Assembly: GCF_002113885.1 (NCBI RefSeq)
Contig: NW_018407519.1
Span: 855,262 to 919,261, forward strand
Source: Mizuhopecten yessoensis
Taxonomy: Eukaryota
Length of the DNA stretch: 64,000 nt
Direction of reading: 5' to 3'
Within the stretch, counting starts at the first letter, position 1. Every line of letters begins with the position of its first letter. Of the stretch, positions 15,001-18,000 are shown in pieces. The position numbers are program-made.

Positions 15001-18000
15001 AACTACACAGAAAAACAAACATGTTGATAAACACACGACTAGTTGAACTAGTTAATTGAAACTTCATCGATGTTTGGTGCAATTTTAATTTTCAATGTGA
15101 GTGCTCCAGATGATGTATGATGTAGTTTGACGATACATTTTTCTATACTTAAAGCACCATTTTCAGAAAAATAAAACACTTTTTCCTATCATGATATGAA
15201 CATGTTTATCATAATACATTCTTTCTACATAGCAATATAATATATCACGCTACGTACACACTAGATATATCATAACCCCGCTAACAGATACATTATACCA
15301 AGAACTAAAACATCATATACCTTTGTAGAAACATAAAATATGTAGTCCTGGAACTGGTAAGCCACTAGGTTTTGTTCAGAAGCTGTTTTCGCTGGCCGGA
15401 TAAACATCATCCAGTTGCACTTATCCTCGTCAGTAAAGTCAAGGGTATCCACATAACCATCTTCCCTAAACACCTGATCAAAATTTCAAAAAGTTGAACA
15501 ATTAAACACATAATTTCTACTTAGACATGAACAGAACTTTAATAACATCAATAGTACCCATCAAGTTTTAATATCAATCAATATAAGTGGGGATTTTCCC
15601 CACAATGAATATGCGAAAATAAATAATGATTTTCAAGTCACAGTATTCTGTACATATAATACTATATCTCGTGTGTACCTTTTTATTATGTAACAATATA
15701 ATATTGAAGTAAGGGCAATTCATTTTAAAAGGTGGATCCTAAGCATATCATCAGTAATATTAAATGGTTAGAAACATAAAACCTTTGAAGTGATTTGTTT
15801 TTTTAGATTTTGCTGTTTCAATTTGATAAGGAAATGGTGTCTGACAACATGAACCCTTTTTTTCGTTGTTTTAAAATCAAAGTACTGAGCAGACTCTGAG
15901 TTGATAAATTTTTATCTATAAGAAACCTTAAGTCATAAATTTATCTTCGTATGGTTGTACAGGATAAAAGTTGGAATTGATGATAACAGTATAAAATACG
16001 CTATAAAAATATAAACCATAATCATTACATATGTACATTCTGTAATTACTGAATATACAGAGAATTACTGTACAATACCTTGAGTTCATACTCTTGTTCA
16101 GCTGCAGTGTTGACTATGATTGGAGGCACCTCAGCAGTATCTGCCTGTTTGCCTGTGGAGTCCTGTGTTTTTGTCTGGTCTCCTTCAGTCTGGGATGCCT
16201 GTAACTCCTTGGTATTGTCCCCGTCAGGACCTACCTCTGCCGGCTGTTGTTGCAGCATCATATCATCAGGTTGTAGCACCATCTCACCCGACTGTTGTGA
16301 TATTAGCTGTGTGGACTGGTGTTGTGGTAGTAACTCATCAGCTGGATTCTGTTGTAATAATTCACCCGACTGGTGTTGCAACAGTTCACTAGCTTGGTGT
16401 GGCATCAACTCACTTGACTGTTGTTGGATCAAGCCTGGTATAGAGTTTGTGTTTGTCCTGTGAGGTCCTGACAAAACCTCCCCTGTTGCAGGGTTCACCA
16501 GAAGGCTGTCACCCGTTGCTGTCACGGTTAAGCCCTCTGTCAACTGGTTCTGTGTGGGCCCCAGGGTTAAGCTATCATTGACAAGCATCTGTGTTGATAC
16601 CAGACCATGTAGGGTATTTACAGGCACAACCACCACTCGCCCCTCACTGTCTACAGTAACGCGGGTCTCAAATGACTGGTTTGGTATCTGAGTCAGCTGC
16701 TGCTCAGCTGACTGACTTAGACCTGCATTGGAAGATAGACCGTCAGTCACTGGCAAACCTGCCTCGATCGATGTTTGCAGGTTCAACTCTGATCCATACT
16801 GTGTTTGATTGGCCAACATATCGCCACCACTATTAAATGATGGGAGGGCATTGGCAACATCTGTGAGTGAGTTGGCTGTGGACAGATAACACTGCAGACT
16901 TTGTGTGACCTCTGCATCAGAGAAGGATCCTGCCTGTAGTGTCTGGGAGCTAGACACACCTACCTGTACAATCTGCTGATTGCTCTGATTGTCAGATACT
17001 ATCCCCTCAAAAAGGTCTCCGTCCACCAGCACCTTGTGACCTACAACAGTGCCAGTATCAAAGTTTTGTTGAGACTCTAGCGGAGTCATTTCTGCAGGTA
17101 AGCTTATAGGGGTTTCTACCTTTTGTTCCAAACTGGCTCTAGATAGCTCAGTCACTACTTCTTCATTGCTTGTTATTTCCTTCTCCTTTGATTTTTTTTC
17201 TTCTTGTTCAGTTTTCTCCTTTTTTGGTTTGGCTTTCTCAGTCGATACAACTTTTGCCATGAAAGGCCCAAACTGTGACTTTACTTGAACAATCCTTTTG
17301 GCTAACACACCATATCCTGTAAAGGTATCATATGTCAAAATTTTTTAAGTATTGATTTAACAGAGATTGTTATACAAGTTTCCCAAACTGGGCAAAAATA
17401 TATAAACCATATATCAGCATTAGCGTAACATTGCTTTTATCATTTACATGTATATGGGATAGAAATATCTCACCTTAAGGTACCTTTTTTGAACCCAAAT
17501 TATGTACCCAAAAGTGAAATGATTTCTATGCTACATAACTTGCATATTATAAAGTAGTTTACTCTTAAATCACTTACCATTGTATTTTATTGATATGTGT
17601 CAACTAATTAAATATTGAACTGATTTTCAAATTATCTAAGTTCTAACTCATTGGAAAGAGTGCAACAGTTTGGTTTTACCGTTTATAATGAAAGTATGAA
17701 GTCTGAATTATACATAACATGTAATAAATGTGGTAGACATATTTAAAAGAAAATAATATTAAGAAAAATGACCTCATCTCATTGTCTTTGAATTATGAAT
17801 ATATGATATCATGCCCCATGATAGAACTTTCCTACTTGGCTTTCCATTTCTGGAAATGTCTTATATCACATTGCATATTTACAACTAATGAACTATGTAA
17901 GAAAAATGTCACTTGAATCTCACATTGTCAATAATGCTTTTCAAAAAGCAAAATAACAAATAAACTTGTATCACAATATAACATTATCTTTTTGTATGTC

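What the first reader, a model, noticed from the sequence alone, without database searches (positions are those of the whole stretch)
16090..17260. PR/SET domain split by a ~390-aa low-complexity insertion
Seen in sequence: between QFGPF and YELK|VF lie ~390 in-frame residues, comprising a K/E-rich stretch, an S/Q/T/V-rich region and an ~8-aa repeat (QQSSELM, HQASELL, HQSGELL, QQSGEMV at ~16250-16430). Established knowledge: in PRDM10/15 this loop is only ~15 aa and falls in the variable i-SET region that helps shape substrate binding. Inference: a large disordered loop grafted into the SET fold may act as an interaction or activation surface, or disable catalysis. It would also make profile searches under-call the PR domain, one reason the architecture could have been overlooked. 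A stop-free 1.2-kb exon argues that it is under selection.
Basis: partly seen in the sequence, partly recalled or inferred. Interest (0 to 1): 0.68.

Follow-up and report, generated by a model that had tools for sequence, protein, structure and literature searches.

The report
Bivalve PR domain split by disordered loop
A scallop transcription-factor gene carries a roughly 380-residue flexible loop inside its PR/SET domain; the same loop position is expanded in all bivalve relatives seen but not in snails, making it a lineage-specific variant of the known "split SET domain" theme rather than a new kind of thing.

Summary
On the minus strand, one 1,238-nt exon (16079-17316) encodes the first PR-domain strands, exactly 390 residues between FGPF and YELK, and then the next PR strand. 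The window is Mizuhopecten yessoensis: the exon is 100% identical to a public protein named "Zinc finger protein PLAG1".

- **Distribution.** The insert sits at one fixed position, at 168-392 aa, in all 11 bivalve-clade proteins examined (Protobranchia, Pteriomorphia, Unionida). The other 71 proteins with both anchors have a normal short loop, including two gastropod orthologues, every PRDM10 and PRDM15, and the scallops' own PRDM10-like and PRDM15-like genes.
- **Structure.** AlphaFold2 models both PR halves confidently (pLDDT 84-97) and the insert below 50. The two halves dock in a controlled test (0.85 against 0.11).
- **Conservation.** Among three pectinids the insert's middle is 80-93% identical and its two ends 43-56%.
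- **Family.** The gene belongs to a third lineage beside PRDM10 and PRDM15, with PLAG-like zinc fingers.

Best reading: a translated, selectively kept, disordered loop that displays short motifs. Its function is inferred. It is a new variant of a known kind (compare the SETDB1 bifurcated SET domain). I found no RNA-seq data for this species.

The parts
19511..19535 (-). Coding part of exon 1 (MSSKKDDF, then T of a split Trp codon); ATG at 19535
   Evidence: locates the ATG. The donor T|GTAAGT is read in the string printed. The N-terminus is identical to P0002/P0003/P0004.
18100..18252 (-). Exon 2: zinc knuckle (C10, C13, C21, H24) and the first PR-domain strands (IPSRARLTLPQGLVIKPVKTQDGKL)
   Evidence: Sequence and splice sites read. 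AlphaFold2 strands E7-10 and E15-18, helix H38-41 and strand E47-53 have pLDDT 80-96.
16079..17316 (-). Exon 3, 1,238 nt: PR strands YGVLAKR..FGPFMAKVV, the whole insert, then AAEQEYELK
   Evidence: 100% identical to P0002. 0 of 2000 shuffles stay open.
16115..17245 (-). The insert proper (P0002 residues 84-460, 377 aa), between nine residues from FGP and 31 residues before NWM
   Evidence: same anchors used for all species. pLDDT <50 for 111-279, 289-336 and 338-461. No Pfam, PDB or Atlas match.
17120..17245 (-). K/E-rich N-terminal tether (residues 84-125); a helix is predicted at 92-107
   Evidence: Entropy about 2.9 bits. 46-49% identity among pectinids. AlphaFold2 helix H92-107 with pLDDT about 66-72.
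16460..17119 (-). Conserved middle of the insert (residues 126-345), S/Q/T/V/L-rich
   Evidence: 80-88% identity among pectinids, and 86-93% for residues 276-345. Modelled without structure except a low-confidence strand blip at 281-288.
16709..16939 (-). Island inside the middle (residues 186-262, ..SELNLQTSIEAGLPVTD..) still recognisable in mussels and one oyster
   Evidence: BLASTP of inserts alone gives E 8e-4 (Mytilus trossulus), 6e-5 (M. galloprovincialis) and 0.003 (Saccostrea). C. virginica is >0.2. Nothing for Potamilus, P0010 or Solemya.
16247..16459 (-). Q/E-L-L repeat region (residues 346-416), period 8
   Evidence: four units; period-8 autocorrelation reached in 0 of 5000 shuffles. 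(15-nt word x4). 75-77% identity among pectinids.
16115..16246 (-). Acidic/T/Q-rich C-terminal tether (residues 417-460)
   Evidence: 43-56% identity and most gap columns among pectinids.
15321..15473 (-). Exon 4: PR core (VFREDGY..CNWMMFIRPAKTASEQNLVAYQ..YVSTK)
   Evidence: PF21549 E 3.7e-16. Best PDB matches are PRDM10 3ihx (5.4e-11) and PRDM4 3db5 (1.7e-9).
14338..14440 (-). Exon 5: end of the PR domain (PIPSNTELKVWYSADYAEKMG..)
   Evidence: PF21549 profile 101-122, E 4.7e-4. Splice sites read.
9841..11837 (-). Exon 6: AT-hook-like basic linker, C2H2 zinc fingers, Q-rich tail, stop
   Evidence: zf-C2H2 families with E 1e-19 to 1e-21. 96-99% identity among pectinids.

Best explanation
What it is. 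The stretch is a real, translated, about 380-residue intrinsically disordered loop. It sits in one surface loop of the PR (SET-like) domain of a scallop zinc-finger transcription factor. The site is directly after the FGP strand and before the '(F/Y)ELK(V/I)F' strand, between positions 39 and 40 of the 123-position Pfam PR profile.

Shown here:
1. The two PR halves, 380 residues apart in sequence, are still predicted to form one ordinary PR fold.
2. The loop is expanded at the same point in every bivalve-clade relative seen (168-392 aa). It is short in gastropod orthologues and in all PRDM10/PRDM15 proteins. The expansion therefore most likely arose in the bivalve stem and has been kept since.
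3. Within scallops the loop has a conserved middle and a Q/E-L-L period-8 repeat, flanked by two fast-evolving charged tethers: K/E-rich on the N side and acidic on the C side.

Inferred:
- The PR domain acts here as a non-catalytic scaffold, as is assumed for its nearest relatives.
- The loop works as a flexible arm that presents short linear motifs for cofactor docking, transcriptional activation or modification. It sits next to the face of the domain that binds partners in SET proteins. The SETDB1 insertion carries a regulatory ubiquitination site in the same way.
- The loop is tolerated because its two ends leave neighbouring strands.
For: Reality and coding:
- The exon is open, and 0 of 2000 shuffles stay open. 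GC is 0.471 against 0.27-0.28 in the introns, with a coding-like GC pattern by codon position.
- It is 100% identical to public protein P0002, and 75% and 70% identical over the full exon to P0003 (Ylistrum balloti) and to the unnamed record P0004.
- P0004 (1240 aa) lies on a contig of 3879 nt. That contig cannot hold introns, so it is transcript-like and keeps the insert (inference).

Distribution:
- Of 82 proteins with both anchors, 11 have an FGP-to-NWM distance of 208-432 and 71 have 26-55.
- All 11 fall in one bivalve clade. It is supported at 0.887 without Solemya.
- Named members span Protobranchia, Pteriomorphia and Unionida.
- The gastropods Nucella and Babylonia have a distance of 41.

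Fold kept:
- AlphaFold2 on P0002 with a 32-sequence alignment gives pLDDT 84-97 for residues 11-100 and 462-552, and <50 for the insert.
- The secondary-structure order matches the insert-less gastropod model.
- Foldseek matches solved PR domains of PRDM1, 2, 4, 5, 9, 10, 11 and 14 at E 1e-5 to 4e-8.
- The halves 1-90 and 462-552 dock with score 0.85 against a best control of 0.11. There are 141-144 contacts, the runs agree in at least 99% of contacts, and the partner pLDDT is 88. That mark was reached by 51 of 78 solved complexes and 2 of 108 mismatched pairs. Many PR domains are solved, so this pass may reflect likeness to them.

Internal architecture (identity among pectinids):
- PR halves 94-98%;
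- insert middle 80-88%, and 86-93% for residues 276-345;
- repeats 75-77%;
- tethers 43-56%.

A central island is still detectable between scallop, mussels and one oyster (E 6e-5 to 3e-3).

Analogy: the SETDB1 SET domain is split by an evolutionarily preserved insertion whose ubiquitination at K867 is needed for full activity (PMC8397983, passages).
Against: - No expression data for this species were available, and P0002 and P0003 are gene models.
- The insert has no detectable similarity between scallop and Potamilus, P0010 or Solemya. Homology of the inserts across all bivalves therefore rests on position alone, and independent expansions at a permissive loop are not excluded.
- Only three sequences inform the insert in the AlphaFold2 alignment. 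Low pLDDT could therefore also mean an unmodelled fold.
- Length varies more than twofold (168-392 aa), which fits weak constraint.
- No motif in the insert matches a known family.
- The proposed docking or activation role is untested.
- P0029, an insert-less protein of unknown origin, groups with Solemya in the tree, without a support value.
- dN/dS could not be computed because no orthologue DNA was available.
Confidence: 0.6

Rival explanations
1. Neutral loop bloat. A permissive surface loop has accumulated sequence by slippage and drift. It is translated but does nothing beyond being tolerated.
For: Length ranges from 168 to 392 aa, and similarity is lost between bivalve orders. The DNA and peptide repeats suggest slippage. 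pLDDT is <50. No family match was found.
Against: The middle of the insert is 80-93% identical among three pectinids while its own ends are 43-56%. An island survives between scallop, mussels and one oyster. None of the 11 bivalve-clade proteins has lost the insert.
Confidence: 0.22
2. Mostly spliced out. The stretch is a retained intron or 'exitron', and the main protein has an ordinary PR domain.
For: No RNA-seq was seen for this species. The annotators of P0002 did remove an in-frame GT..AG segment from exon 6 (11248-11592), so such calls are made in this gene.
Against: The transcript-like contig of P0004 keeps the whole insert. All eight named bivalve models keep it. GC and the codon-position pattern are exon-like, against 0.27-0.28 in real introns. 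An open frame of 412 codons occurred in 0 of 2000 shuffles.
Confidence: 0.08
3. The conserved middle (residues 126-345) is a small folded domain of a new kind that AlphaFold2 cannot model from three sequences.
For: It is 80-93% identical among pectinids. It has V/T/L-rich, strand-prone stretches and a strand blip at 281-288 with pLDDT 58.
Against: F+Y+W make up 1.8% and there is no Trp. pLDDT is 30-42 across the region. There is no PDB, Pfam or Atlas match. The segment is not recognisable outside Pteriomorphia.
Confidence: 0.07
4. The insert switches off or gates a methyltransferase activity of the PR domain.
For: The site adjoins the region that shapes the substrate groove in SET enzymes (recalled). 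The SETDB1 insert controls activity (PMC8397983, passages).
Against: A review table lists no activity for PRDM10 or PRDM15 (PMC4009873). The domain carries NWM where SET enzymes have their NH(S/C) motif (sequence; motif recalled). Insert-less relatives show no sign of being enzymes.
Confidence: 0.03

Closest known systems
SETDB1 / SETDB2 'bifurcated' SET domain
   Same: A SET-type fold is interrupted by a long non-SET insertion that is kept through evolution, and the two halves still form one domain. In SETDB1 the insertion carries a regulatory modification site (PMC8397983, passages; PMC5087952, listing and abstract only).
   Different: SETDB1 is an active SUV39-type H3K9 methyltransferase with pre- and post-SET modules. 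The scallop protein is a PR-type domain in a C2H2 transcription factor with no evidence of catalysis. Whether the insertion points coincide was not tested here.
SMYD family split SET domain
   Same: [quoted passage not shown]
   Different: In SMYD the inserted piece is a folded MYND zinc-finger domain. Here it is about 380 residues predicted to be disordered.
PRDM10 and PRDM15
   Same: A zinc knuckle followed by a PR domain and then C2H2 fingers. The best solved-structure match of exon 4 is PRDM10 (3ihx, 5.4e-11). PRDM15 proteins rank next after the mollusc orthologues in the profile search.
   Different: Their loop is short (FGP-to-NWM distance 40-49). The scallop gene falls in a separate clade (0.859) from PRDM10 (0.923) and PRDM15 (0.862). 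Scallops also have their own PRDM10-like (P0209) and PRDM15-like (P0181, P0211) genes.
PLAG family zinc-finger factors (PLAG1, PLAGL1, PLAGL2)
   Same: Two public records of this gene are named 'Zinc finger protein PLAG1'. Insert-less clade members P0016, P0019 and P0020 end in ..LPRFHQ(A/V)FQ, which I recall as the PLAG1 C-terminus. An Atlas cluster of 347 chordate proteins named 'PLAGL1' carries PF21549 in 98% of its members.
   Different: Mammalian PLAG proteins as I recall them have no PR domain. No PLAG reference sequence was compared here, so the relation is a lead and not a test.

Membership tests
PRDM family (PR domain plus C2H2 fingers) | A PR-type SET domain recognised by profile and by fold | tested here: met
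   PF21549 scores E 7.1e-31 on P0002, but covers only residues 463-545 (profile 40-122). Exon by exon the E-values are 0.041, 3.7e-16 and 4.7e-4. Foldseek matches solved PR domains of eight PRDMs.
PRDM family (PR domain plus C2H2 fingers) | An array of C2H2 zinc fingers C-terminal to the PR domain | tested here: met
   zf-C2H2_4 8.1e-21 and zf-C2H2 1.7e-19 on exon 6.
PRDM10/15 subfamily | Groups inside the PRDM10 or PRDM15 clade in a PR-domain tree | tested here: not met
   FastTree on 54 sequences and 212 columns. PRDM10 has support 0.923 (12 sequences) and PRDM15 0.862 (11). This gene lies in a third clade at 0.859 (25). The join of the third clade to PRDM15 is weak at 0.177. This is a small tree with one method and SH-like supports only.
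PRDM10/15 subfamily | Zinc knuckle directly upstream of the PR domain | tested here: met
   C10, C13, C21 and H24 are invariant in three pectinids and modelled as two short hairpins with pLDDT 68-86. That this is a subfamily hallmark is recalled.
Bifurcated / split SET domains (as an architectural class) | One SET-type fold built from two segments separated by a long insertion | tested here: met
   Both halves have pLDDT 84-97 while the 350 residues between them are <50. The halves dock at 0.85 against a best control of 0.11 (possibly from memory of solved PR domains).
SETDB1/SUV39 methyltransferases | Catalytic SET motifs and cysteine-rich pre- and post-SET modules | tested here: not met
   Pfam SET (PF00856) is not reported on P0002 at E <= 0.001. 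The sequence shows NWM at the position of the SET NH motif (motif recalled). No Cys-rich flanks are seen.
PLAG family | Orthology of the finger array and C-terminal tail to PLAG1/PLAGL1/PLAGL2 | tested here: inconclusive
   The only support is source names, an Atlas cluster name and a recalled C-terminal motif. PDB holds no PLAG chain among 36 matches.
Intrinsically disordered region | No stable predicted structure, polar-biased and aromatic-poor composition | tested here: met
   pLDDT is 28-42 in 10-residue blocks across most of 111-461. F+Y+W make up 1.8%, and Q+S+T+E 40.6%. Prediction only, from a shallow alignment.

The most novel reading that the evidence does not exclude
Bivalves carry a 'bifurcated PR domain'. 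This would be the first PRDM-type counterpart of the SETDB1 split SET domain. The inserted arm would be a regulated module and not a spacer. Its conserved middle and E-L-L repeats, held on two charged tethers beside the partner-binding face, would either recruit co-activators or fold back to gate what the PR domain binds. The arm would have been kept since the bivalve ancestor in a PR-plus-PLAG-like factor that mammals know only in a PR-less form.
Probability: 0.15. Interest if true: 0.65.

Novelty: new variant of a known kind. Interest (0 to 1): 0.45.

Why it matters
Three reasons it matters:
- **A natural test case.** Nobody knows what the PR domain does in the many PRDM proteins that lack enzyme activity. 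Here the domain has tolerated, and kept, a loop three times its own size at one fixed point. Natural insert-less orthologues in snails serve as controls, so the question of which surface of the domain must stay free can be asked directly.
- **An annotation problem.** Pfam reports only the C-terminal two-thirds of the domain, and public names for the same gene range from PLAG1 to PRDM10-like to uncharacterized. Surveys of PRDM genes in molluscs can therefore miss or misfile it.
- **A possible link between families.** The PR-plus-PLAG-like lineage may connect two transcription-factor families that are treated separately.

None of this changes a major open question, so the interest is moderate.

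Tried and rejected
- **Similarity of the insert to anything known.** Pfam gave only a weak DUF4198 hit at E 0.034, below its cut-off. PDB sequences gave 0 matches at E <= 1. The ESM Atlas gave no usable hit.
- **Insert copied from the protein's own Q-rich tail.** Rejected: the best BLASTP E-value is 7.7.
- **DNA tandem array.** Tandem Repeats Finder found none. Only a 15-nt word recurs four times.
- **PRDM4 orthology.** This was my first guess, and I dropped it. Exon 4 matches PRDM10 slightly better than PRDM4, and the tree puts the gene beside PRDM15 and PRDM10.
- **Names and taxa of the unnamed representatives.** P0005, P0010, P0014, P0016, P0019, P0020 and others therefore remain of unknown origin. 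The later alignment search named only P0009, P0008 and P0022 among them.
- **Foldseek across the insert.** The whole model aligned only one PR half at a time (62-92 columns). It could not show on its own that the halves pack together.
- **Literature searches.**
  - 0 papers for 'split / bifurcated / interrupted PR domain' or 'PR domain insertion'.
  - 0 papers for 'plagx'.
  - 0 papers for PLAG1+PLAGL1+PLAGL2+invertebrate.
  - 11 papers for PLAG1 + PR domain + PRDM, none on this architecture judging by title and abstract.
- The collection genome contigs holds only bacteria and archaea and was not used.
- **Not attempted.** No scoring of possible internal splice sites was attempted, because no model was available.
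Full report
**Scope.** Each exon was searched on its own. Full-length analyses used the public protein record that the exon search returned (P0002) and its relatives, unaltered. The window holds no N and nothing in it looked human.

**What is there.** The gene runs on the minus strand. Reading the DNA gives six coding exons:
- 19511-19535 (ATG at 19535)
- 18100-18252
- 16079-17316
- 15321-15473
- 14338-14440
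- 9841-11837

Exon 3 is 1,238 nt and translates without a stop to 412 residues. It starts with YGVLAKRIVQVKSQFGPFMAKVV and ends with AAEQEYELK. Exon 4 continues with VFREDGYVDTLDFTDEDKCNWMMFIRPAKTASEQNLVAYQ.

The Pfam PR profile PF21549 (123 positions) is spread over three exons:
- exon 3, residues 2-43, matches profile 14-56 (E 0.041)
- exon 4 matches profile 51-100 (E 3.7e-16)
- exon 5 matches profile 101-122 (E 4.7e-4)

**Is it more than chance?** Yes, on four counts:
- None of 2000 composition-preserving shuffles of the exon stays open.
- The other five frames hold 10-33 stops.
- The exon has GC 0.471 against 0.27-0.28 in the two flanking introns.
- Its GC by codon position (0.59/0.38/0.44) resembles that of the zinc-finger exon (0.55/0.40/0.44).

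The period-8 repeat is real:
- Four units sit at 16403-16423, 16379-16399, 16355-16375 and 16277-16297.
- The period-8 autocorrelation of 1.15 is reached by 0 of 5000 shuffles.
- Tandem Repeats Finder reports no DNA array, but a 15-nt word recurs four times.

'Low-complexity' is only partly apt. Mean 30-residue entropy is 3.37 bits against 3.45 in exon 6, and only the K/E stretch falls to about 2.9. The bias is compositional: Q, S, L, T, E and V lead, and F+Y+W make up 1.8%.

**Whose gene is it?** Exon 3 is 100% identical to P0002, 'Zinc finger protein PLAG1 [Mizuhopecten yessoensis]'. Over its full length it is 75% identical to P0003 (Ylistrum balloti) and 70% identical to the unnamed record P0004. 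P0004 has 1240 residues on a contig of 3879 nt. The gene spans about 9.7 kb in the window, so that contig cannot contain introns. I infer that it is transcript-like and shows the insert retained in a close relative. I saw no expression data for M. yessoensis itself.

**How widespread is the insert?** I measured the distance from the last (F/Y/C)GP to the next NW(M/L/I) in every protein fetched. Of 82 proteins with both anchors:
- 11 have a distance of 208-432.
- 71 have a distance of 26-55. One of these, at 26, looks truncated.

With the same anchors, the insert lengths are:

| Source | Insert length (aa) |
|---|---|
| Three pectinids | 377, 382, 392 |
| Two Mytilus | 309, 308 |
| Saccostrea and Crassostrea | 241, 241 |
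| Potamilus | 292 |
| Solemya | 168 |
| Unnamed P0005 | 195 |
| Unnamed P0010 | 219 |

The named species cover Protobranchia, Pteriomorphia and Unionida. The gastropod orthologues Nucella and Babylonia have a distance of 41. So do the scallops' own PRDM10-like (42) and PRDM15-like (41) genes.

In an alignment of ten insert-bearing proteins, the insert begins and ends at the same columns in all of them. Sequence similarity between inserts fades quickly:
- scallop against Mytilus: E 8e-4 and 6e-5
- scallop against Saccostrea: E 0.003
- scallop against C. virginica: nothing below 0.2
- scallop against Potamilus, P0010 or Solemya: nothing

**Family.** A FastTree of the PR domain used 54 sequences and 212 columns, with the insert cut out inside the script. 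It gives three clades:
- PRDM10, support 0.923, 12 sequences
- PRDM15, support 0.862, 11 sequences
- a third clade, support 0.859, 25 sequences, holding this gene, the gastropods and insert-less proteins

The deeper joins are weak (0.177, 0.443). The insert-bearing set without Solemya has support 0.887. Solemya groups with P0029, an insert-less protein of unknown origin, without a support value.

Three of the insert-less proteins end in ..LPRFHQ(A/V)FQ. I recall this as the PLAG1 C-terminus. The ESM Atlas holds a 347-member chordate cluster named 'PLAGL1' in which 98% of members carry PF21549. These are leads to a PR-plus-PLAG-like lineage, not tests.

The survey of Prdm genes by Vervoort and colleagues (PMC4760075; I read passages found by term search) never mentions PLAG or an insertion. 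It treats Prdm10/15 as one subfamily that duplicated in vertebrates. I did not open its supplementary tables, which may list mollusc genes bearing on this point.

**Structure.** AlphaFold2 on P0002 with a 32-sequence alignment gives:
- pLDDT 84-97 for residues 11-100 and 462-552
- pLDDT below 50 for 111-279, 289-336 and 338-461
- one helix at 92-107 in the K/E stretch
- a low-confidence strand blip at 281-288

The insert-less gastropod P0022 was modelled the same way. It shows the same order of elements, and its 19-residue loop (118-136) is confident.

| Scallop P0002 | Gastropod P0022 |
|---|---|
| E47-53 | E89-93 |
| E59-65 | E101-105 |
| E472-474 | E137-140 |
| E479-484 | E143-147 |
| H493-496 | H157-160 |
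| E508-513 | E172-177 |
| E516-521 | E180-185 |
| E532-535 | E196-199 |
| H537-543 | H201-206 |

Foldseek matches the scallop model to solved PR domains of PRDM1, 2, 4, 5, 9, 10, 11 and 14, but only one half at a time.

To test whether the halves belong together, I sent residues 1-90 and 462-552 as two chains:
- score 0.85, best of three controls 0.11
- 141-144 contacts
- runs agree in at least 99% of contacts
- partner pLDDT 88
- the mark was reached by 51 of 78 solved complexes and 2 of 108 mismatched pairs

Many PR domains are solved, so this pass may come from likeness to them. It shows that the halves look like one PR domain, not that they were measured to bind.

**Profile under-calling.** On the full protein, Pfam reports PF21549 only for residues 463-545 (profile 40-122), and for Solemya only profile 42-122. 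The gastropod gets profile 10-122 and P0016 gets 7-122. The insert therefore falls between profile positions 39 and 40, and it does hide the first third of the domain.

**Anatomy of the insert.** Identity among the three pectinids:

| Region | Identity |
|---|---|
| PR halves | 94-98% |
| K/E tether (residues 84-125) | 46-49% |
| Middle (126-345) | 80-88%, reaching 86-93% for 276-345 |
| Repeat region (346-416) | 75-77% |
| Acidic tether (417-460) | 43-56% |
| Zinc fingers | 96-99% |

The pattern is a constrained core on two fast-evolving charged tethers.

**How it most likely works.**
- *Shown:* a kept, translated-looking loop, predicted disordered, at a fixed loop of an otherwise ordinary PR fold. 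It is restricted to the bivalve-clade proteins, with a conserved middle.
- *Inferred:* the PR domain is a non-catalytic scaffold. A review table lists no methyltransferase activity for PRDM10 or PRDM15 (PMC4009873, passages). The loop acts as a flexible arm presenting short motifs for cofactors, activation or modification.

The nearest precedent is the SETDB1 bifurcated SET domain. Its evolutionarily preserved insertion is ubiquitinated at K867, and that modification is needed for full activity (PMC8397983, passages). SMYD proteins split the SET domain with a folded MYND domain instead (PMC3924839, abstract in the listing). That the scallop site corresponds to the 'SET-I' region is recalled and was not tested.

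**Rivals.** I considered neutral loop growth, an insert that is mostly spliced out, an unmodelled new fold, and control of catalysis. They are weighed in their own section.

**Novelty.** I found no paper describing a split or interrupted PR domain (0 hits) or a PR domain in PLAG-type factors. The library searched lacks most subscription journals, so this is not proof of absence. Large disordered loops inside domains, and split SET domains, are known kinds of thing. I rate this a new variant of a known kind, of moderate interest.

**What stayed unchecked:**
- expression in this species
- dN/dS
- orthologue gene structures
- the closed collections metagenome contigs and viral contigs

Noticed in passing
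window 11248-11592 (-), inside exon 6: The public model P0002 omits this in-frame, GT..AG-bounded 115-residue segment (basic linker, poly-Asp run, one C2H2 finger). P0003 and P0004 keep it, and the window's frame is open throughout. It looks like an annotation artefact or an exitron.
   Followed up: partly
whole gene, window 9841-19535 (-); proteins P0014, P0016, P0019, P0020, P0022, P0166: The gene belongs to a clade of zinc knuckle + PR domain + PLAG-like fingers that is distinct from PRDM10 and PRDM15. Some insert-less members end in ..LPRFHQAFQ. A 347-member chordate Atlas cluster named 'PLAGL1' carries the PR profile in 98% of its members. A PR-bearing PLAG lineage does not appear in the papers I could search.
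   Followed up: partly
proteins P0209 (M. yessoensis), P0181 (Ylistrum), P0211 (Pecten maximus): Scallops hold separate PRDM10-like and PRDM15-like genes that fall in the respective clades. This sits uneasily with a Prdm10/15 duplication placed at the vertebrate root (PMC4760075, passages). My tree is small and its deep nodes are weak.
   Followed up: partly
window 59860-61917 (+): An intact 685-residue open frame has DDE_Tnp_4 (E 1.9e-17) and HTH_Tnp_4 (E 3.5e-7) domains. It is a Harbinger/PIF-like transposase or a gene derived from one, in a stretch of raised GC (0.44-0.47).
   Followed up: partly
window 1-950, 7228-7521, 31880-32155, 37285-39089: These are minisatellite-like arrays, visible as long repetitive open frames on both strands. 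The 35-39 kb region also has a strong GC and AT skew.
   Followed up: no
window 22754-23306 (+) and 33791-34583 (+): These are fragments resembling non-LTR retrotransposon endonuclease and reverse transcriptase. There is a weak Exo_endo_phos_2 hit (E 0.008) for 22983-23303 and no Pfam hit for 33791-34213.
   Followed up: partly
protein P0154 (Mytilus edulis): This public model fuses an unrelated N-terminus to the second part of the insert and lacks the first PR half. It is another sign that the long exon confuses gene prediction.
   Followed up: no
proteins P0006, P0174, P0175 (unnamed records): These records of the same family start at a Met in the linker after the PR domain and carry no PR profile. 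One stands for 340 member sequences. They may be 5'-truncated contigs or PR-less isoforms of the kind known for other PRDM genes.
   Followed up: no
window 39852-40571 (+): A 239-residue Ser-rich open frame with no Pfam match.
   Followed up: no
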